From the NCBI RefSeq assembly GCF_000020025.1, contig NC_010628.1, forward strand, positions 1,110,001 to 1,142,000: a stretch of 32,000 nt of DNA, written 5' to 3'. A program made the translations under genes and the position numbers. This stretch comes from Nostoc punctiforme PCC 73102 (GTDB lineage Bacteria; Cyanobacteriota; Cyanobacteriia; Cyanobacteriales; Nostocaceae). Below, one piece after another: positions 5,503 through 31,813 of this stretch (position 1 is the stretch's first letter; every line of letters starts with the position of its first letter). The notes beneath the pieces are model-generated. The model was not told the DNA's origin and ran no database searches. It saw only the letters and a list, made by a program, of their open reading frames with translations.

Positions 5503-5579
5503 GGTCATGGGGCATGGGGCATGGGTTATTAATTCATCTTCCCAATGCCCAATTCCCCATTCCCTACTCCCCACTCCCC
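5503..5579. repeat. STRR-type heptamer inverted repeat (GGGGCAT units facing CCCAATG/CCCCATT/CCCCACT units)
   Basis: Direct reading: ggtcatggggcatggggcatgggt ... cccaatgcccaattccccattccctactccccactcccc. The arms can pair. The element sits right after the ribF stop, so it may act as a terminator-like hairpin. Confidence 0.7.
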
Positions 5580-5586
5580 GCGCTGC

Positions 5587-6495
5587 ATGAGAGAAAAAAT
5601 TGACGCTTTAACACAAAATCTGGCTCTTACCATTGTTGGCAAAGCTGAAGCAATACGCTTAGTGCTAGTAGCCTTGCTAGGTGGTGGTCATGCCCTGCTA
5701 GAAGATGTTCCTGGTGTTGGTAAAACCCTACTCGCTAAATCTCTAGCTCGTTCACTGGATGGTAAGTTTCAACGCCTACAATGTACCCCCGATTTACTGC
5801 CAACTGATATTACTGGCACCAATATCTGGAACCCAAAAAGCGGCGAATTTACTTTTCTCCCTGGGCCAGTCTTTACGAATATTCTCTTAGCTGACGAAAT
5901 TAACCGCGCTACACCCCGCACTCAGTCAGCTTTGCTGGAAGTTATGGAGGAACATCAGGTAACAGTCGATGGTGTCTCTCGTCTAGTTCCCCAGCCCTTC
6001 TTTGTCATCGCTACTCAAAACCCGATCGAGTATCAAGGTACTTTTCCCCTGCCGGAAGCGCAAATGGATCGGTTCATGTTGTCGCTGAGTTTGGGCTATC
6101 CTTCGGAGGCAGAAGAACTCCTGATGCTGCAAAATCTCCAAAATGGTATTAAGGTTGGTGATTTGCAGCCTTGTATTACCTTGGCAGAAGTACAGGAATT
6201 GCGTTACATCTGCTCTCAAGTAAAAGTAACAACCTCCTTGCAACAGTACATCCTCGAATTGGTGCGGGCAACACGCCAAGATGAGGAAATCGCTCTTGGT
6301 GTCAGTCCGCGTGGCACATTAGCATTACAACGGGCTGCCCAAGCGTTAGCTTTTCTATTAGGGCGTGATTATGCCATTCCCGATGATGTGAAATTTCTCG
6401 TCCCTCACGTTCTTTGCCATCGCCTTATTCCTAGAGGAGGACGCAACGCTAGAACTGTTGTTGAGCGATTATTGCGATCGGTTTCTATTCCTTAA
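5587..6495 (+). CDS. MoxR-family AAA+ ATPase
   Basis: It has Walker A (EDVPGVGKT), Walker B (LLADEINRA) and the ATQNPIEYQGTFPLPEAQMDRF sensor region typical of MoxR/RavA-type ATPases. The tracked ORF starts at 5545, but those 14 codons translate the heptamer repeat. ATG 5587 (MREKIDALTQNL) is the probable start. Confidence 0.9.
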   Translation: MREKIDALTQNLALTIVGKAEAIRLVLVALLGGGHALLEDVPGVGKTLLAKSLARSLDGKFQRLQCTPDLLPTDITGTNIWNPKSGEFTFLPGPVFTNILLADEINRATPRTQSALLEVMEEHQVTVDGVSRLVPQPFFVIATQNPIEYQGTFPLPEAQMDRFMLSLSLGYPSEAEELLMLQNLQNGIKVGDLQPCITLAEVQELRYICSQVKVTTSLQQYILELVRATRQDEEIALGVSPRGTLALQRAAQALAFLLGRDYAIPDDVKFLVPHVLCHRLIPRGGRNARTVVERLLRSVSIP

Positions 6496-25721: not shown

Positions 25722-27482
25722 GTGTCCCACATCACTCAGAGGGCGGTTCACTGTATAAATCCTGATTGTCAACGTCCTTATCCCCAACCTTGGGGAAACA
25801 AATTCTGCAACAGCTGTGGCACACCGCTAGAGTTGTTAGACCGCTATGTTCCACTTCAGCCATTAGGTTCGGGAGGATTTGCTCAAATTTACACGGTTTG
25901 GGATGAAAAAACTCAAACAGAGAAAGTGCTGAAAGTGTTGGTAGAAGATTCACCAAAAGCACTGGAATTATTTACCCAAGAGGCCGCGGTTTTATCTAGT
26001 TTGCAGCATCCAGGTGTCCCCGCAGTCGATACTGAAGGGTATTTTCAGGTACAACTGTTTAACCCCAAGCCGCACCAACTACCTTGTCTGGTAATGGAAA
26101 AAATCAATGGACGGACTTTAGAGGAGATATTAAAAAAGTTTCCCCAAGGGTGTCCAGAGAACTTGGTTATCAATTGGTTTGCCCAAGCTGTAGAGATTTT
26201 ACAAGAATTACACAAACGTCAGATTATTCACCGGGATATTAAACCTTCTAATTTAATGCTGGGCACATCTTCGCCCACTGTCAGCCTACCTCAAGGGCAA
26301 ATAGAAGGCGATCGCCTGGTACTAATTGATTTTGGTGGGGCAAAGCAATTTAGCCCCTCTAAGCTGCGTTCTCAGTCGAGTTCTACCCGATTATTTTCTT
26401 CTGGTTACAGTCCACCAGAACAAGTGAGTGGAAGTATTGTCGGGCCAAGTGCCGATTTTTATGCCCTTGGTCGAACGATGATTGAACTGCTAACAGGCAA
26501 ATACCCGCTAGAGTTGGAAGATCAGCAAACTGGGAAACTTGTATGGCGCACTGCGGTAAATGTCAATCCGCAATTAGCAGATTTGCTGGATGAGATGGTG
26601 CAAGAGGATGTGCGATCGCGTCCAGCAAATGCAGCTATGATTCAAAAACGGTTGGCGAAGATTTCTCAACCATTACCGCCGCCAGGATTATTTGCCCAAC
26701 TGCGAGATCGGGTTAAGCAAGCTTCAACGCAAGTTTCCCAGAGATTTACACTGCTAATCCAAGCTATTGAACAAGTTTTAGCGAACTTTAGCCAAGCTGT
26801 AACTAAAACCGTTGTTTTTATCGCTCAAACAATCATCAAAATTTTCCAAGCTTGTTTGGCGACGATTTGGGCGATGATTTTGGCTTATGTTGGCGCTTGT
26901 TTTGGTGCGATCGCTGGTTTTATTTTGGCATATCACACCAACTTGGGGCGTTGGGTTGTGGAATTTATTTCGAGTCAGCTAAACCAATTAGTCCCAAATA
27001 CTCAAACCGTCTTTGGGGCAGATATTTTGGTATTCATCGCCGCAGGCTGGGGAACCGCTTGGGGACTGACAGCATCCGGGTGTTTTGGTCAACGGCGGCG
27101 CTTTTTAGTAGCATCGCTGATGGGCATGATTAGCTACGGCTTTGGCTGGTTCATTTTGCAATTAATCACACCAAAAGACAGTGGTGAAGGCTTAGTTGCA
27201 GTGATTTTAGTAGCAGCTTGCCTACTCACATTGAGCTTAGGTCTTCGCAGCCATCACATAGTGTACGCCGTGTTAGCTGCCTTTGGTAGCGCGATCGCCT
27301 ACGCATTTTTGATTCTTTTGAGGTTAGCACCTCCCATCTTCCAATTTTCTAGTCAACCAGCCTGGTCAGAGTTACAGTTACCTCTGATTTTTTTTGGTTC
27401 TGTAGGCTTCTTTATCAGCTTCTGGTTAGGAGTAAGTTACTACCTAATTGTCCCTGGATTGCGCCTTTTAGGGTGGCGATGA
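25722..27482 (+). CDS. Ser/Thr protein kinase with N-terminal zinc ribbon and C-terminal polytopic membrane domain
   Basis: The start is GTG. The zinc ribbon reads CINPDC...CNSCG. Kinase motifs are GSGGFAQIY, VLKVL, HRDIKPSNLML, DFGGAK and SPPEQ. The last ~230 residues hold several hydrophobic helices. Confidence 0.9.
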   Translation: MSHITQRAVHCINPDCQRPYPQPWGNKFCNSCGTPLELLDRYVPLQPLGSGGFAQIYTVWDEKTQTEKVLKVLVEDSPKALELFTQEAAVLSSLQHPGVPAVDTEGYFQVQLFNPKPHQLPCLVMEKINGRTLEEILKKFPQGCPENLVINWFAQAVEILQELHKRQIIHRDIKPSNLMLGTSSPTVSLPQGQIEGDRLVLIDFGGAKQFSPSKLRSQSSSTRLFSSGYSPPEQVSGSIVGPSADFYALGRTMIELLTGKYPLELEDQQTGKLVWRTAVNVNPQLADLLDEMVQEDVRSRPANAAMIQKRLAKISQPLPPPGLFAQLRDRVKQASTQVSQRFTLLIQAIEQVLANFSQAVTKTVVFIAQTIIKIFQACLATIWAMILAYVGACFGAIAGFILAYHTNLGRWVVEFISSQLNQLVPNTQTVFGADILVFIAAGWGTAWGLTASGCFGQRRRFLVASLMGMISYGFGWFILQLITPKDSGEGLVAVILVAACLLTLSLGLRSHHIVYAVLAAFGSAIAYAFLILLRLAPPIFQFSSQPAWSELQLPLIFFGSVGFFISFWLGVSYYLIVPGLRLLGWR

Positions 27483-27666: not shown

Positions 27667-28047
27667 ATGGAACCTATTTCTATGATTATTGCTGCTTTAG
27701 GTGCTGGTGCGATCGCAGCTACTAAGGATACCGCAGGAACAGCAGTTAAAGATGCCTATCAGGGGTTGAAAACCTTGATTAAGAAGAAGTTTGAAAGTGA
27801 ACCAAAAGCACAAATGGTTCTGGAAGAACACGAAACAGACCCTGAAACCTATGAAGCACCACTTAAAAAGAAATTAGCTGAAGCTGGTGCTGAAAAAGAT
27901 GCAGAAATTATTAAGTTAGCCCAAGAGTTACTGAAACAGGCAAAACCTGATGAGTCAGCAGCAGGTAAATACAACACAGTGTTTCAAGGAGAAGTAAAAG
28001 GGATTCAGGTGGGCGATCACAACAAACAAGAAAACACATTTGGCTAA
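27667..28047 (+). CDS. Bell/HeLo-like small effector candidate with a C-terminal amyloid-signalling-type motif
   Basis: The 126-aa ORF has a Gly/Ala-rich hydrophobic N-terminus (MEPISMIIAALGAGAIAATKD), a helical Lys/Glu-rich body (AVKDAYQGLKTLIKKKF...) and the tail KYNTVFQGEVKGIQVGDHNKQENTF. That tail matches the N-terminus of the next gene. The downstream ORF starts 19 nt after the stop. Confidence 0.72.
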   Translation: MEPISMIIAALGAGAIAATKDTAGTAVKDAYQGLKTLIKKKFESEPKAQMVLEEHETDPETYEAPLKKKLAEAGAEKDAEIIKLAQELLKQAKPDESAAGKYNTVFQGEVKGIQVGDHNKQENTFG

Positions 28048-28066: not shown

Positions 28067-31000
28067 ATGGCTGAAGAGAATTCCAACTACAGTTCAAGGT
28101 TTGAAAATGAAGTAAAGAGTGCTGTAGTTGGTGAAAAAAACATTATCTACAACTACTTTTACTATAGAGAAGAAGCAAGAGTAGAACCTGTTGATTCTAC
28201 CGACGCTGCTGATGAATATCTCCCTTGTCCTTATCGGGGGTTGTTTCATTTTGGCCCCAATGATGCGGATGTTTTCTGTGGGCGGGAAATATTTATCGAA
28301 GAACTTTATAGTGCAACTAAAACCAATAATTTTATTCCGGTGCTAGGTGCATCAGGAAGCGGTAAATCTTCGGTGGTATTAGCGGGATTAGTCCCTAAGT
28401 TACAAACAGCAGGTCATTGGCAGTTTACTCACTTTCGTCCTGGTTCTGACCCTTTCCATGCTCTAGCTTTAGCTCTTGTTCCTCTTTATACACCTAATTT
28501 AGATCAAACAGACCAAATTGCCCAAGCCCGAAAGATGGCTGGTTACTTGCAAGATGGTTCTGTTATTCTCTTAGATGTTTTTGCTAAAATTCAGCAAAAT
28601 CACCCTAATCATCGGGTACTACTGATTGCTGACCAATTTGAAGAAATTTACACACTCTGTAACAATCAAGAAATTCGCCGTAAGTTTCTCGACTGCTTAT
28701 TAGCCAGTTTAGTAACTCCTACTTCCCTGACTTCATCAGCTACGGTGTTAGTGACAACGATGCGGGCAGATTTTTTGGGAAATGCTCTCTCCTATCGTCC
28801 CTTTGCTGATGTCTTGCAAAATGCTGACGTGAAACTGGGGCCGATGAATCGGGAGGAACTAACAGAAGTCATTGGAAAACCTGCCCAAAAATTTGGGGTG
28901 ACATTTGCAGACGGACTGGTAGAACGCATTCTGGATGATGTGGAAAACCAACCGGGAAATTTACCTTTGCTAGAGTTTGCTTTAACAGAGTTGTGGAATA
29001 AGCGAACAGGTAAACAATTAACTCACAAAATCTATGAAGAAATTGGTCAAGTAGAAGGTGCGTTAGCTCGTCATGCGGATGAGAAATATGGCAACTTGAC
29101 AGATGATGAGAAGGAAAAAGTGCGGCGGATTTTTATTCAATTGGTGCGTCCGGGTGAGGGAGCAGAAGATACAAGACGCATAGCGATGAAAGCGCAATTG
29201 GGGGAACAAAGCTGGTCTTTGGTAAAAAAATTAGCTGATGCTCGGTTGGTGGTGACAAGTCGCAATCTTAGCAGTCAAGAAACAGTAGAAGTAGTCCATG
29301 AAGCTCTGATTCGCAATTGGGGAGAACTGCGACAATGGATGAATACAAACCGCGTTTTTAGAGCTTGGCAAGAGCGATTGCGAGCAGCAAAGGGACAATG
29401 GGAAGCAACAAATAAAGATTCGGGGTCATTGTTGCGGGGTGCAGCATTAGCAGAAGCAGAAGAAAAACTGAAGGAACGCCCAGAAGACTTAATTGATGAA
29501 CAAGAATTTATCGAGCAGAGTATTAAAGAAGGAAATCGCCTTAAACAAGTTGAAGCAGCCCGCAGAAAGCGCGAAATCAGAACCGCCTGGGCAATTGCGG
29601 CAGGTTCAGTGGTGGCGGTGGTAATTAGCAGTGGATTGGGTTTGACGGCATGGAATCAGACGAAGCAGGCACAACTCAATCAAGCTGAATCTCTGAGTAG
29701 ATATTCCTTATCTCTAATTAATGAACATAAAGACTTAGAAGCTTTCGTCACAGCAATAAAAGCAGGAAAAATCCTGCAAAGCCAACACACAACTAAACTA
29801 GAAACTTTCAATGCTTTGCAGACAGTTCTGGTTCAGGGAAGAGAACGAAACCGCTTAGAAGGGCATCAAAGCGCAGTCAATAGTGTGAGTTTCAGCCCGG
29901 ACGGCAAAACCATCGCCACGGCATCACAAGACAAGACAGCGCGGTTGTGGAACCTGCAAGGGCAACTGCTGCAAGAATTCAAAGGGTATCAAGGCACAGT
30001 CTTAAGTGTGAGTTTCAGCCCGGATGGCAAAACCATCGCCACGGCATCATCTGACAAGACAGCGCGGTTGTGGAACCTGCAAGGTAAACTGCTGCAAGAA
30101 TTCAGAGGGCATCGCAGTGGTAGAGGTATGAGTTTCAGCCCGGACGGCAAAACCATCGCCACGGCATCAGAAGACGGGACAACGCGGTTGTGGAACCTGC
30201 AAGGGCAACTGCTGCAAGAATTCAAAGGGCATCAAGGCAGTGACGAAGGTGTGAGTTTCAGCCCGGACGGCAAAACCATCGCCACGGCATCACAAGACAA
30301 GACAGCGCGGTTGTGGAACCTGCAAGGGCAACTGCTGCAAGAATTCAAAGGGCATCAAGGCGAAGTCTCAAGTGTGAGTTTCAGCCCGGACGGCAAAACC
30401 ATCGCCACGGCATCATCTGACAAGACAGCGCGGTTGTGGAACCTGCAAGGGCAACTGCTGCAAGAATTCAAAGGGCATCAACGCGGTGTCAATAGTGTGA
30501 GTTTCAGCCTGGACGGCAAAACCATCGCTACGGCATCATCTGACAAGACAGCGCGGTTGTGGAACCTGCAAGGGCAACTGCTGCAAGAATTCAAAGGGCA
30601 TCAAGGCCTAGTCTTAAGTGTGAGTTTCAGCCCGGACGGCAAAACCATCGCTACGTCATCAGATGACAAGACAGCGCGGTTGTGGAACCTGCAAAGGCAA
30701 CTGCTGCAAGAATTCAAAGGGCATCAAGGCGAAGTCTCAAGTGTGAGTTTCAGCCCGGACGGCAAAACCATCGCCACGGCATCAGAAGACGGGACAGCGC
30801 AGTTGTGGAACCTGCAAGGGCAACTGCTGCAAGAATTCAAAGGGCATCGCAGTGGTAGAGGTGTGAGTTTCAGCCCGGACGGCAAAACCATCGCCACGGC
30901 ATCAGCTGACAGGACAGCGCAGTTGTGGAACCTGCAAGGGCAACTGCTGCAAGAGTTCAAAGGGCATCAAAACGTAGTCTCAAGTGTGAGTTTCAGCCCG

Positions 31001-31702
31001 GACGGCAAAACTATCGCCACGGCATCCTGGGACTGCACAGCGCGGTTGTGGAACCTGCAAGGGCAACTGCTGCAAGAATTCAAAGGGCATCAAGGCGCAG
31101 TCAATAGTGTGAGTTTCAGCCCGGACGGCAAAACCATCGCCACGGCATCAGTTGACGAGACAGCGCGGTTGTGGAACCTGCAAGGGCAACTGCTGCAAGA
31201 ATTCAAAGGGCATCAAAGCGGTGTCAATAGTGCGAAGTTCAGCGCAGTCAATAGTGTGAGTTTCAGCCCGGACGGCAAAACCATCGCCACGGCATCATCT
31301 GACAACACAGCGCAGTTGTGGAACTTGCAAGGGCAACTGCTGCAAGAATTCAAAGGGCATCAAGGCCTAGTCTTAAGTGTGAGTTTCAGCCCGGACGGCA
31401 AAACCATCGCCACGGCATCATCTGACAACACAGCGCGGTTGTGGAACCTGCAAGGGCAACTGTTGCAAGAATTCAAAGGGCATCAACGCGGTGTCAATAG
31501 TGTGAGTTTCAGCCCGGATGGCAAAACCATCGCCACGGCATCTTATGACAAGACTATTAAACTCTGGGATCTAGATTTACACCCTTTAATGAGGCGCAGT
31601 TGTGATTCGGTACGCGATTATTTAACCTATAATCCTTTAAAAGATAATCCTGATGTCAGCGAGAATGACAGGCACTTGTGCGACGGTATTGGCAGAAAGT
31701 AG
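28067..31702 (+). CDS. NLR-like STAND (NACHT-type) P-loop NTPase with N-terminal signalling motif, one predicted TM helix and 14 WD40 repeats
   Basis: GGAG lies at 28056..28059. The N-terminal motif spans residues 7-31. CPYRGLFHF...FCGRE leads in to Walker A GASGSGKS (28346..28369) and Walker B-like [10 protein letters not shown]. The hydrophobic segment [24 protein letters not shown] maps to 29582..29653. The 14 WD40 units run from residue 599. Confidence 0.93.
29861..31575 (+). repeat. Coding tandem repeat: 14 WD40 units of 123 bp (two of 120 bp, one of 147 bp), near-identical at nucleotide level
   Basis: The string gtgagtttcagc recurs at 29885, 30008, 30128 (as atgagtttcagc), 30251 and onward. 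The block ttgtggaacctgcaagggcaactgctgcaagaattcaaagggcatc recurs almost verbatim at 13 unit junctions. Confidence 0.95.
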
Positions 31703-31732: not shown

Positions 31733-31813
31733 GGGGGCAGGGGGCAGAGGAGCAGGGGAGCAGGGGAGCAGAGGAGAGTTTTTGTACAAGTTCTTTCCCC
31801 TCTGCTCCTCTGC
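31733..31813. repeat. G-rich / C-rich inverted-repeat element downstream of the NLR gene (same family as 16527..16640)
   Basis: The G-rich arm is gggggcagggggcagaggagcaggggagcaggggagcagaggagag and the C-rich arm is tttcccctctgctcctctgc. They share a 12-nt exact complement (GCAGAGGAGCAG/CTGCTCCTCTGC). Confidence 0.6.

What the first reader, a model, noticed from the sequence alone, without database searches (positions are those of the whole stretch)
29861..31575. Fourteen WD40 units with very high internal nucleotide conservation and variation confined to two codon patches
Seen: the units read GH-[xxxxx][14 protein letters not shown][x]-D-[x]-T-[xx][13 protein letters not shown]. About 60 nt at each junction recur almost verbatim, and synonymous differences are rare (for example gac/gat, gcc/gct, acc/act). 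Amino-acid changes cluster in two places. One is directly after GH (SAVNS, GTVLS, SGRG, GSDEG, GEVSS, RGVNS, GLVLS, NVVSS, GAVNS). The other is in the AS-x-D-x-T-xx segment (QDKTAR, SDKTAR, EDGTTR, DDKTAR, EDGTAQ, ADRTAQ, WDCTAR, VDETAR, SDNTAQ, YDKTIK). Established: the same signature is known from fungal NWD/HET-E type NLR genes and has been noted in bacterial NLR-like proteins. There it combines concerted evolution of repeats with hypervariability at positions on the ligand-binding face of the beta-propeller. Inference: two 7-bladed propellers form a rapidly diversifiable recognition surface.
Basis: partly seen in the sequence, partly recalled or inferred. Interest (0 to 1): 0.7.

Follow-up and report, generated by a model that had tools for sequence, protein, structure and literature searches.

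The report
Hypervariable WD40 sensor array, Nostoc NLR
A Nostoc gene for an immune-receptor-like protein ends in 14 almost identical WD40 repeats that differ only at the few positions expected to touch a ligand; the pattern is real, but the design is already known from cyanobacteria and from fungal self/non-self receptors.

Summary
Nt 29861-31600 encode 14 WD40 units of 123 nt. They are 97% identical outside nine codons, and four columns (5, 7, 23, 25) carry most of the variation.

The array is the C-terminal sensor of a 1211-aa nSTAND1 NTPase protein (28067-31702). A 126-aa Bell-type ("MEPIS") protein is encoded 19 nt upstream. Its C-terminal 24 residues match the receptor's N-terminus, the signature of bacterial amyloid-signalling (BASS) NLR pairs.

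The variable codons lie in the D-A loop, the start of strand A and the B-C turn, the loops that conventionally form the top face of a WD40 propeller. They coincide in spacing with the positively selected codons of Podospora HET-E/NWD repeats. The closest solved structure is Nostoc punctiforme WRAP (2YMU), which has 14 blades forming two 7-bladed propellers.

Comparison with 13 other arrays shows the same variable columns, 7-17 units, and homogenisation within several arrays. Patch alleles are private to each array. At the orthologous chromosomal locus whole arrays have been swapped.

A conserved hydrophobic helix between NTPase and array predicts that the propellers are extracytoplasmic.

All these elements are already described in the literature, so this is a well-characterised new member of a known kind.

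The parts
27667..28047 (+). Bell-type (HetE-N / 'MEPIS') putative membrane-targeting effector protein, 126 aa, with a C-terminal signalling motif
   Evidence: The ORF is listed. It has 405 homologs, nearly all of which carry PF20701 HetE-N. The AlphaFold model shows five helices at pLDDT about 90 and a disordered C-terminus. The N-terminus MEPISMIIAALGAGA matches the 'MEPIS' motif of Bell/Hell/Bab (preprint 10.1101/2024.11.07.622273).
27967..28041 (+). Bell-side BASS-like motif KYNTVFQGEVKGIQVGDHNKQENTF
   Evidence: It aligns without gaps over 24 residues to the receptor N-terminus, score 44, P=2e-4 against shuffles. Pfam gives a faint RHIM match on IQVG and a weak EAD10 match.
28067..31702 (+). 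NLR-like receptor gene, 1211 aa. Order of parts: BASS motif, nSTAND1 NTPase, predicted TM helix, helical linker, 14 WD40 units, Cys-containing cap
   Evidence: The gene starts 19 nt after the Bell gene.
28088..28165 (+). Receptor-side BASS-like motif [26 protein letters not shown]
   Evidence: The motif type switches together with the Bell C-terminus across loci; three types are seen.
28229..29422 (+). nSTAND1 STAND NTPase domain (aa 55-452)
   Evidence: Pfam PF20703, E 8.7e-121.
29582..29653 (+). Predicted single-pass transmembrane helix [24 protein letters not shown] (aa 506-529)
   Evidence: Kyte-Doolittle 19-residue mean is 1.91. There are 5 K/R in the 15 residues upstream and 1 downstream. 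The segment is conserved in position in 21 orthologs and present in 108 of 111 homologs. The AlphaFold model has low confidence here.
29654..29860 (+). Helical linker ending in the non-repeated strand RERNRLE, which probably closes a blade ('velcro')
   Evidence: The model shows helices here. RERNRLE aligns to KERNRLE of 2YMU, described there as the non-repeating velcro strand (PMC6805158).
29861..31600 (+). 14 WD40 units. In each, patch 1 is codons 3-8 and patch 2 is codons 23, 25 and 28
31217..31264 (+). 24-nt tandem duplication inside patch 1 of unit 12. The copies are 19/24 identical and enlarge the D-A loop by 8 residues
   Evidence: Codon listing. In the model this is an unstructured, low-confidence loop at residues 1037-1049.
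31574..31702 (+). Conserved C-terminal cap [17 protein letters not shown]...[11 protein letters not shown] with two invariant cysteines
   Evidence: The cap is conserved after arrays of every type in the orthologs. The model predicts a helix at 1160-1177.

Best explanation
The 14-unit array is the ligand-sensing domain of a two-gene, NLR-like cell-death or immune module of a Nostoc chromosome.

Shown:
- The receptor has an N-terminal motif of about 25 residues, an nSTAND1 STAND NTPase, a conserved hydrophobic helix, a helical linker, 14 WD40 blades and a small capped C-terminus.
- The gene 19 nt upstream encodes a five-helix Bell-type protein. Its disordered C-terminus carries the same motif as the receptor's N-terminus.
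- Within the array the scaffold codons are kept nearly identical at nucleotide level.
- A few codons in the D-A loop, the start of strand A and the B-C turn are saturated with non-synonymous differences.
- Patch 1 alleles recur with different patch 2 partners.
- Related arrays differ in unit number and share almost no patch alleles.
- At the orthologous locus other strains carry arrays of other repeat families.

Inferred:
- Unequal crossing-over and gene conversion, within an array and between paralogous receptor genes, homogenise the scaffold and reshuffle units.
- Diversifying selection keeps and renews variants on the binding face of two 7-bladed propellers.
- Ligand binding causes NTP-dependent oligomerisation. 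This brings the N-terminal motifs together, templates the Bell protein's motif into an amyloid-like fold, and releases its hydrophobic N-terminal helix to damage the membrane.
- If the hydrophobic helix spans the membrane with the NTPase inside, the propellers sense something outside the cytoplasm.
For: Architecture.

Site-specific variability and excess of non-synonymous change.

The same variable columns appear in 14 arrays of two unit families from several genera.

Up to 18 amino acids occur per variable column. At col 7, W+Y+F make up 31% of residues.

Recombination inside units: five patch 1 alleles each occur twice, with different patch 2 alleles.

Homogenisation: scaffold identity within arrays is 0.976 (window), 0.979 (L003), 0.938 (L005) and 0.929 (L019). 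Between arrays it is mostly 0.80-0.89.

Mosaicism: the window and L003 array consensus scaffolds are identical (0 of 22 synonymous sites differ), although NTPase dS between them is 0.276. Window versus L002 shows the reverse, array dS 0.51 against NTPase dS 0.195. The identity profile changes in the linker.

Orthologous locus: L001, L023, L025 and L007 share the S21-RRM-kinase upstream genes. L001, L023 and L007 carry other array families, L025 ends at a stop before any array, and L007 has another motif type.

Bell/BASS pairing. In L015 the Bell domain is fused to the receptor.

Literature: Dyrka 2020 preprint; Ibarlosa 2024 preprint, where Bab/Agp is an abortive-infection anti-phage system; Paoletti 2007; Hu 2017; Afanasieva 2019 and Pereira & Lupas 2022.
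Against: No experiment bears on this locus.

The dN/dS values come from pairwise counting on recombining repeats. No site-model or recombination-aware test was run, so positive selection is inferred rather than proven.

Several comparison arrays (for example L003) come from short-read metagenome bins, where unit order could be chimeric.

In two arrays (L002, L016) within-array identity is no higher than between-array identity.

Foldseek found no solved structure resembling the Bell model (E>6). PADLOC and NCBIfam have no model for the system.

A membrane helix between NTPase and sensor does not fit the usual NLR picture, in which the sensor folds back on the NTPase.

Face assignment rests on strand positions and convention, not on computed coordinates.
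Confidence: 0.72

Rival explanations
1. Recently amplified propeller (the 'WRAP' model). The array was amplified a short time ago from a single blade and is now differentiating by ordinary mutation, with loops simply less constrained. There is no ongoing concerted evolution or diversifying selection.
For: The closest structure, 2YMU, is the type example of this model (PMC9218822). Between arrays there are array-specific fixed synonymous differences, for example 8 between the window and L002 consensus units. This is the pattern those authors read as independent amplification. Within-array scaffold dS is low, 0.065.
Against: Patch dN (1.14) is about 17 times scaffold dS (0.065), and patch dN/dS is 2.4-2.6. 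Relaxed constraint cannot exceed the neutral rate. Five patch 1 alleles are duplicated with different patch 2 partners, which shows exchange after any amplification. Unlike Npun_R6612, this array has more than ten synonymous variants. The same columns vary in 14 independent arrays. The two models are not exclusive, because cycles of amplification could be one way the scaffold is homogenised.
Confidence: 0.15
2. The array, or its unit order and number, is an assembly artefact of a repetitive region.
For: Arrays of this kind break assemblies. Most public orthologs are 'partial' proteins at contig ends. L019 has a run of N inside its array. Short-read Logan contigs carrying the identical Bell gene all stop about 255 nt into the receptor gene. 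I had no reads to check.
Against: The longest exact repeat in the array is 104 nt, so every 105-mer is unique and the path is resolvable. The frame stays open through 14 units into a cap conserved in all orthologs. Arrays of the same design occur in complete or near-complete chromosomes: L002 Nostoc sp. C117, L016 and L022. A 14-blade homolog has been crystallised.
Confidence: 0.05
3. Targeted mutagenesis, for example a diversity-generating retroelement (DGR), writes the variation into the patches.
For: nSTAND1 NTPases in other multicellular bacteria carry DGR-diversified C-type-lectin sensors (PMC10907252). The rate contrast between patch and scaffold is very large.
Against: No reverse transcriptase or template repeat lies among the window's genes, which are ordinary chromosomal genes. 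Patch codons differ at all three positions and show no adenine-specific pattern. Variation is spread over 14 separate copies rather than one variable region.
Confidence: 0.03
4. The protein is a signalling scaffold with no immune or non-self role, for example a partner of the neighbouring Ser/Thr kinase. On this view the loop variability reflects many endogenous partners.
For: The kinase-Bell-receptor order is conserved in four syntenic loci. Hu 2017 noted frequent kinase neighbours of cyanobacterial WD40 genes. There are no functional data.
Against: Endogenous partners would not predict private patch alleles in every strain, or the replacement of the whole array at one locus. Nor would they predict a partner protein of a family shown in E. 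coli to execute abortive infection.
Confidence: 0.08

Closest known systems
Podospora anserina HET-E / HET-D / NWD receptors (NACHT + highly internally conserved WD40 repeats; Paoletti 2007, PMC1805685)
   Same: An NTPase is followed by near-identical WD40 units. Four hypervariable codons occur in two pairs, each flanking a conserved residue, with identical spacing. Unit number varies. Units are exchanged within and between loci.
   Different: The NTPase is nSTAND1, not NACHT. The host is a bacterium, so RIP plays no part. A predicted membrane helix lies between NTPase and repeats. The effector is a separate Bell protein reached through a shared motif. A recognition function has been shown in the fungus and not here.
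WRAP domain of Nostoc punctiforme Npun_R6612 (PDB 2YMU; Afanasieva 2019, Pereira & Lupas 2022)
   Same: It has the same 41-residue unit and 59% identity. It has 14 blades, a non-repeated N-terminal velcro strand (K/RERNRLE), a STAND NTPase host protein, and comes from the same genus.
   Different: WRAP has only 10 amino-acid differences and no synonymous ones, most of them at the position equivalent to col 7. The window array has 45 codon variants, including synonymous ones, and five strongly variable columns. WRAP's partner gene is a TIR-STAND protein, not a Bell protein.
Bell/BASS-NLR gene pairs (Dyrka et al. 2020) and the E. coli Bab/Agp abortive-infection system (Ibarlosa et al. 2024 preprint)
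   Same: A small helical protein has a hydrophobic 'MEPIS' N-terminus and a C-terminal motif repeated at the N-terminus of the adjacent collinear NLR-like gene. The intergenic gap is short. The host is a filamentous cyanobacterium.
   Different: Dyrka's screen used NB-ARC and NACHT neighbours, whereas here the NTPase is nSTAND1. I could not assign the motif to one of BASS1-11. Amyloid formation is untested for this motif.
Apaf-1 (apoptosome)
   Same: It is a STAND NTPase followed by two WD40 propellers that bind the activating ligand. The full-length model aligns to it at Foldseek E 2e-41.
   Different: Apaf-1 has 7+8 diverged blades, a CARD effector adaptor and no membrane helix. Its NTPase is NB-ARC.
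Cyanobacterial orthocaspase-AAA_16-TM-WD40 proteins (reviewed in PMC7475262)
   Same: They have the same NTPase-membrane helix-WD40 layout. An extracellular position of the WD40 part has already been proposed for them. Some homologs of this receptor are annotated as peptidase C14.
   Different: Their effector, a caspase-like protease, is fused to the protein rather than recruited through a shared motif.
DGR-diversified nSTAND1/NACHT-CLec sensors of multicellular bacteria (PMC10907252)
   Same: They have the same NTPase clade and the same logic: a conserved signalling core with a hypervariable C-terminal sensor.
   Different: Their diversity comes from error-prone reverse transcription into a lectin fold. 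Here it comes from repeat exchange plus point mutation in WD40 loops.

Membership tests
Highly internally conserved WD40 sensor arrays of NLR-like proteins (fungal HET-E/NWD type) | A NOD-type STAND NTPase lies N-terminal to the WD40 array | tested here: met
   nSTAND1, PF20703, E 8.7e-121, aa 55-452. The clade differs from the fungal NACHT.
Highly internally conserved WD40 sensor arrays of NLR-like proteins (fungal HET-E/NWD type) | Units are at least about 80-90% identical to each other | tested here: met
   Nucleotide identity is 90.2% over whole units and 97.3% in scaffold codons.
Highly internally conserved WD40 sensor arrays of NLR-like proteins (fungal HET-E/NWD type) | Hypervariability is confined to two pairs of codons, each pair flanking a conserved residue (fungal codons 7/9 and 25/27) | tested here: met
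   Cols 5/7 flank V6 and cols 23/25 flank D24, with entropies of 2.2-2.7. The spacing is the same as in PMC1805685. Col 4 is also variable.
Highly internally conserved WD40 sensor arrays of NLR-like proteins (fungal HET-E/NWD type) | dN/dS is above 1 at those codons | tested here: inconclusive
   The Nei-Gojobori ratio is 2.4-2.6, and patch dN is 1.14 against scaffold dS of 0.065. No likelihood site model or recombination-aware test could be run.
Highly internally conserved WD40 sensor arrays of NLR-like proteins (fungal HET-E/NWD type) | Unit number is polymorphic | tested here: met
   Related arrays have 7 to 17 units, with 14 the commonest. The comparison is between genomes, not within a population.
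Highly internally conserved WD40 sensor arrays of NLR-like proteins (fungal HET-E/NWD type) | Concerted evolution: units resemble others of their own array more than units of other arrays | tested here: met
   This holds for the window/L003 group, L005 and L019. It does not hold for L002 and L016. Consensus units carry array-specific synonymous differences.
Highly internally conserved WD40 sensor arrays of NLR-like proteins (fungal HET-E/NWD type) | Repeats are exchanged between paralogous loci | tested here: met
   The window's 5' part is closest to syntenic L001 (NTPase dS 0.129), while its array is identical in consensus to non-syntenic L003.
Highly internally conserved WD40 sensor arrays of NLR-like proteins (fungal HET-E/NWD type) | The repeat domain determines recognition specificity | not testable with these tools
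   This needs genetics or binding assays.
WRAP (Npun_R6612-type recently amplified propeller) | Close sequence and structure relationship to 2YMU, with 14 blades forming two 7-bladed propellers | tested here: met
   phmmer E 1.6e-210. Foldseek E 4e-59, and TM 0.98 to a 7-bladed WRAP-T design. The 7+7 partition is taken from the homolog and was not measured on the model.
WRAP (Npun_R6612-type recently amplified propeller) | No synonymous differences between blades, the mark of very recent amplification | tested here: not met
   At least ten synonymous variants occur in scaffold codons.
WRAP (Npun_R6612-type recently amplified propeller) | The gene is coupled to a TIR-STAND partner gene | tested here: not met
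   The upstream partner is a Bell-type protein. The 298 nt downstream hold no such gene.
Bell/BASS amyloid-signalling NLR pair | A helical domain of about 100 residues with a hydrophobic N-terminal helix and an acidic residue at position 2-3 ('MEPIS') | tested here: met
   The sequence starts MEPISMIIAALGAGA. The model shows five helices at pLDDT about 90. Homologs carry PF20701 HetE-N. The window protein itself scores below Pfam thresholds.
Bell/BASS amyloid-signalling NLR pair | A C-terminal motif of about 25 residues is repeated at the N-terminus of the adjacent NLR-like protein | tested here: met
   Ungapped 24-residue alignment, P=2e-4. Three motif types switch together on both partners across loci, scoring 44-74 within a type and 13-27 between types.
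Bell/BASS amyloid-signalling NLR pair | The genes are collinear with a very short intergenic distance | tested here: met
   The gap is 19 nt in the window and 13-23 nt in most loci.
Bell/BASS amyloid-signalling NLR pair | The motif matches one of the published BASS1-11 profiles | not testable with these tools
   The profiles are not available here. There is only a faint Pfam RHIM match (E 0.26) on IQVG.
Bell/BASS amyloid-signalling NLR pair | The motif forms amyloid, and the NLR side templates the Bell side | not testable with these tools
   This needs fibril, prion or NMR assays. The model leaves residues 108-124 disordered.
Diversity-generating retroelement target | A reverse transcriptase and a template repeat are nearby, with adenine-specific substitutions | tested here: not met
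   The window has no reverse transcriptase. Substitutions occur at all bases.

The most novel reading that the evidence does not exclude
The receptor may be a membrane-spanning NLR. On this reading the NTPase and the amyloid-type motif are cytoplasmic, and the two hypervariable propellers sit outside the cytoplasmic membrane. There they would bind extracellular non-self, such as phage particles or the surfaces or secretions of neighbouring cells. Signalling would work by ligand-induced clustering that nucleates the cytoplasmic motif, not by the intramolecular release seen in known NLRs. In addition, one chromosomal locus would act as a docking site where whole sensor arrays and signalling motifs are exchanged as cassettes among paralogous receptors. 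That would give a population-level recognition repertoire in a bacterium.
Probability: 0.3. Interest if true: 0.65.

Novelty: new member of a known kind. Interest (0 to 1): 0.35.

Why it matters
The locus shows in one place the full set of features proposed for a bacterial counterpart of fungal NLR immunity:
- a hypervariable repeat sensor with the same variable codons as in Podospora;
- repeat homogenisation and reshuffling;
- an amyloid-motif link to a putative pore-forming partner.

The comparisons made here add concrete, testable points. Between strains, scaffolds can be identical while patch alleles are completely different. The orthologous locus carries different array families in different strains. 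Almost all family members have a membrane helix between NTPase and sensor.

None of this changes the current picture, but it gives a good natural system for testing it. Useful tests would be swapping arrays, measuring topology, and challenging with cyanophages.

Tried and rejected
- A first alignment of the WD40 region with full-length homologs (A1) mis-registered the query against the NTPase region. I discarded it and modelled residues 12-1211 with 65 full-length homologs instead.
- Model coordinates are not exposed. Face mapping therefore had to rest on strand positions and convention.
- An exact look-up of the receptor protein found nothing. The Bell protein is found only on short Logan contigs, so no same-strain or near-identical allele was available for an intraspecific comparison.
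- PADLOC and NCBIfam have no model for either protein. The only hits were an unrelated repeat model and a sub-threshold chance hit.
- I could not assign the motif to a numbered BASS family from the papers held.
- Promoter and terminator scans were at chance level.
- A DGR origin was considered and rejected.
- The antisense ORFs inside the array (29989-30225 and 30724-30960) are by-products of the repeat.
- A test on synonymous codon pairs within the patch columns (1 observed, about 3.7 expected for random codons, my arithmetic) is not significant. I do not use it as evidence.


Full report
**The observation**

The window holds one long ORF, 28067..31702 on the + strand, encoding 1211 aa. Tandem Repeats Finder reports a 123-nt period from 29859 onward, and Pfam finds 14 WD40 stretches.

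I delimited 14 units at 29861-31600. Eleven are 41 codons long. Units 3 and 9 lack one codon in the segment after GH. Unit 12 carries a 24-nt duplication in the same segment. Unit 14 diverges after its D-x-T into a non-repeated tail.

In units 1-13 the amino-acid entropy is:
- 2.66 at column 5
- 2.50 at column 23
- 2.20 at columns 7 and 25
- 1.57 at column 4
- at most 0.78 everywhere else

Of 45 codon variants, 25 lie in five of the 41 columns. No uniform simulation out of 200,000 reached this.

Scaffold codons are 97.3% identical at nucleotide level and the nine patch codons 63.6%. Nei-Gojobori counting gives dN/dS of 2.4-2.6 in the patches and 0.26 in the scaffold. Patch dN (1.14) is about 17 times scaffold dS (0.065).

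**What the array belongs to**

Residues 55-452 are an nSTAND1 STAND NTPase (PF20703, E 8.7e-121). The best relatives of the N-terminal 598 residues are Nostoc proteins at 85-95% identity, many of them truncated at contig ends. The rest of the window is ordinary cyanobacterial chromosome, including pheS, surE, ribF, secA and ndh.

An AlphaFold model of residues 12-1211 has mean pLDDT 74, and 80-95 over most of the repeats. Over its full length it aligns to Apaf-1 (E 2e-41). Its best match is 2YMU (E 4e-59). Part of it superposes on a 7-bladed WRAP-T design at TM 0.98 and 0.8 A.

By sequence, 2YMU is the closest solved structure by far (E 1.6e-210). It is the WRAP domain of Nostoc punctiforme Npun_R6612, whose 14 blades form two 7-bladed propellers (PMC6805158).

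**Where the variable sites sit**

In every unit of the model, strand A is columns 6-11, B is 17-22, C is 27-31 and D is 36-40.

The variable columns therefore fall in three places:
- the D-A loop (columns 3-5)
- the first residues of strand A (columns 7-8)
- the B-C turn and the start of strand C (columns 23, 25, 28)

The A-B loop (SPDGK) and the C-D loop (LQGQ) never vary. By the established WD40 convention the D-A and B-C connections form the top face. I could not verify this on coordinates, because the model file is not exposed.

The four strongest columns come as two pairs around a conserved residue: 5 and 7 around V6, and 23 and 25 around D24. Paoletti et al. describe this arrangement for the positively selected codons 7, 9, 25 and 27 of the Podospora NWD family, which surround purified codons 8 and 26 (PMC1805685).

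Hu et al. had already noted that highly repetitive WD40 proteins of cyanobacteria and fungi are conserved except at predicted hotspot sites (PMC5587647).

**Comparison with related arrays**

A scan of one genome per species returned 78 loci. Fourteen arrays belong to two unit families:
- a 41-residue "Q-type", as in the window
- a 42-residue "E-type", ...TLASGSxDxTIKLWNLETGKEIRTLTGHS

These come from Nostoc, Anabaena, Calothrix, Trichormus, Microcoleus, Phormidium and others. All are variable at the same columns 4, 5, 7, 23 and 25.

Unit number ranges from 7 to 17, with 14 the commonest. Patch 1 also tolerates insertions and deletions of -4, -1, +2 and +8 codons in different arrays.

Across 270 units, up to 18 different amino acids occur at a variable column. 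Aromatic residues are frequent, with W+Y+F at 31% of column 7.

Among 276 units there are 216 distinct patch 1 sequences. None of the window's ten patch 1 nucleotide alleles recurs in another locus.

**How the array evolves**

Inside the window array five patch 1 alleles occur twice: QSAVNS, RSGRG, QGEVSS, QRGVNS and QGLVLS. Each time the patch 2 partner differs, so units have exchanged segments with breakpoints in the conserved 42 nt between the patches.

Scaffold identity within arrays is 0.976 (window), 0.979 (L003), 0.938 (L005) and 0.929 (L019). Between arrays it is mostly 0.80-0.89. L002 and L016 are not more homogeneous than the between-array level.

Consensus units of different arrays differ only at synonymous sites (dS 0.42-0.72, dN about 0), which shows strong protein-level constraint on the scaffold.

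Array history is uncoupled from NTPase history:
- The window and L003 consensus scaffolds are identical (0 of 22 synonymous sites differ), although their NTPase regions have dS 0.276.
- The window and L002 show the reverse, array dS 0.51 against NTPase dS 0.195.

Upstream synteny (S21, an RRM protein, a Ser/Thr kinase) identifies L001, L023, L025 and L007 as the positional orthologs of this locus. L001 is 93% identical in protein over the N-terminal 598 residues (94.8% at nucleotide level; NTPase dS 0.129), yet it carries 14 E-type units. L023 carries a third unit family. L007 carries a diverged E-type array and a different N-terminal motif.

The identity profile of the window against L001 falls in the linker before the array, while the profile against L003 rises there.

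Taken together, these results show three things. Scaffolds are homogenised within arrays. Variants at a few surface codons turn over much faster than the scaffold. Whole sensor modules move between receptor genes. This is the regime described for the fungal NWD family and suggested, but not tested, for bacterial NLRs by Dyrka et al..

The Lupas group reads similar data as repeated fresh amplification from single blades. That may contribute to homogenisation. On its own it does not explain a non-synonymous patch divergence far above the synonymous scaffold divergence, or the recombinant units.

**The partner gene**

Nineteen nucleotides upstream lies a 126-aa ORF (27667-28047). It has 405 homologs, almost all about 125 aa long and carrying PF20701 (HetE-N). 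The window protein itself scores below Pfam thresholds, with weak EAD10 and faint RHIM matches over its C-terminus.

Its model is a five-helix domain at pLDDT about 90 followed by a disordered tail. It begins MEPISMIIAALGAGA. This is the hydrophobic "MEPIS" N-terminus that Ibarlosa et al. describe as common to Bell, Hell and Bab cell-death domains.

Its last 24 residues align without gaps to residues 8-31 of the receptor: Y...F..EVK...VG..N...N.F, score 44, P=2e-4.

Across loci, three unrelated motif types occur. The Bell C-terminus and the receptor N-terminus always switch together, scoring 44-74 within a type and 13-27 between types. In L015 the Bell domain is fused directly to the receptor.

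These are the defining features of the Bell/BASS-NLR pairs of Dyrka et al.. One such pair, Bab/Agp of E. coli, has been shown to be an abortive-infection anti-phage system working through amyloid templating.

Amyloid formation by this particular motif, and its assignment to a numbered BASS family, could not be tested.

**A predicted membrane helix**

Residues 506-529 ([24 protein letters not shown]) have these properties:
- They contain no charged residue.
- Their 19-residue Kyte-Doolittle mean is 1.91.
- They are bracketed by tryptophans.
- They have five K/R in the 15 residues before and one after.

A segment with these properties is present at the same place in 21 orthologs even where its sequence differs, and in 108 of 111 homologs.

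The simplest reading is a single-pass helix with the NTPase inside and the WD40 array outside the cytoplasm. The two invariant cysteines of the C-terminal cap would fit an oxidising compartment, but that is speculation.

The same topology has been proposed for cyanobacterial orthocaspase-AAA_16-TM-WD40 proteins (PMC7475262). Periplasmic sensors have been predicted for some STAND systems (PMC10907252). The idea is therefore not new. The papers on amyloid-signalling NLRs that I read do not mention it.

**Rivals**

- An assembly artefact is unlikely. Every 105-mer of the array is unique, the frame runs into a conserved cap, and equivalent arrays exist in complete chromosomes. I had no reads, and arrays of this kind do break short-read assemblies.
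- A retroelement-driven mechanism is not supported. The window has no reverse transcriptase, and the substitutions show no adenine bias.
- A purely endogenous scaffolding role does not explain private patch alleles or array replacement.

**Verdict**

The object is the sensor array of a Bell/BASS-nSTAND1-WD40 receptor pair of Nostoc. Each of its components is already described:
- highly repetitive WD40 arrays in cyanobacterial STAND proteins, with a crystal structure
- hotspot-restricted variability
- the fungal concerted-evolution model
- amyloid-motif effector pairing
- a membrane helix before WD40 in related proteins

I rate it a new member of a known kind, of moderate interest. Its main value is as a clean natural case for experiments.

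Noticed in passing
window 27667-28047 and 28088-28165: A small upstream ORF starts with MEPIS and a hydrophobic helix. Its last 24 residues match the N-terminus of the WD40 protein, so the pair looks like a Bell/BASS amyloid-signalling pair. Three motif types switch together on both partners across related loci.
   Followed up: yes
window 29582-29653: A conserved 24-residue uncharged segment lies between the NTPase and the WD40 array. It has tryptophans at both ends and a strong K/R excess on its N-terminal side. A segment like it is present in 108 of 111 homologs. It predicts a membrane-spanning receptor with the array outside the cytoplasm.
   Followed up: partly
window 31574-31702: A non-repeated C-terminal cap (…[12 protein letters not shown]…DRHLCDGIG) has two invariant cysteines. 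It is conserved after arrays of every repeat family and even after degenerate, non-repetitive WD40 domains. Its role is unknown.
   Followed up: partly
window 31217-31264: A 24-nt tandem duplication (19/24 identical) lies inside the variable segment of unit 12 and adds eight residues to one loop. Other arrays have -4, -1 and +2 codon changes at the same place.
   Followed up: partly
L015 5686-9537 (Nostoc sp. CMAA1605): The Bell-type domain is fused in frame to the N-terminus of the receptor in place of the two-gene arrangement. This is a natural 'all-in-one' version.
   Followed up: no
L001, L023, L007, L025 versus the window: Loci that share the upstream S21-RRM-kinase genes with the window carry arrays of other repeat families. 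L007 also has another signalling motif, and L025 has a premature stop. The locus looks like a site of repeated module replacement.
   Followed up: partly
L019 (Trichormus sp. NMC-1) array; the 'partial' proteins; L079-L083: Public assemblies often break in or near these genes. There is a run of N inside the L019 array. Most orthologous proteins are truncated at contig ends. Five short-read contigs carrying the identical Bell gene all end about 255 nt into the receptor gene, which suggests near-identical paralogous NTPase sequences in the same genome.
   Followed up: no
window 25722-27482: The upstream Ser/Thr kinase has an N-terminal Cys-rich (zinc-ribbon-like) segment and a long hydrophobic C-terminal half. 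Its position next to the Bell/receptor pair is conserved in four loci. Any functional link is untested.
   Followed up: no
window 31733-31812: A G-rich imperfect tandem repeat (GGGGCAGGGGGCAGAGGAGCA…) just after the stop codon pairs with a C-rich stretch to form a stem of about 15 bp (MFE -56.7 kcal/mol, z -2.5). It lacks the T-run of a classical terminator.
   Followed up: partly
whole window; none in 28067-31702: The cyanobacterial HIP1 palindrome GCGATCGC occurs 28 times in 32 kb (0.18 expected). It is absent from the 3.6-kb receptor gene, where about 3 would be expected at the local density.
   Followed up: no
window 5545-6495: This is a MoxR-type AAA+ ATPase (AAA_3) with a weak match to the MoxR of MoxR-vWA-beta-propeller ternary conflict systems. 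I did not examine its neighbours for vWA or propeller partners.
   Followed up: no
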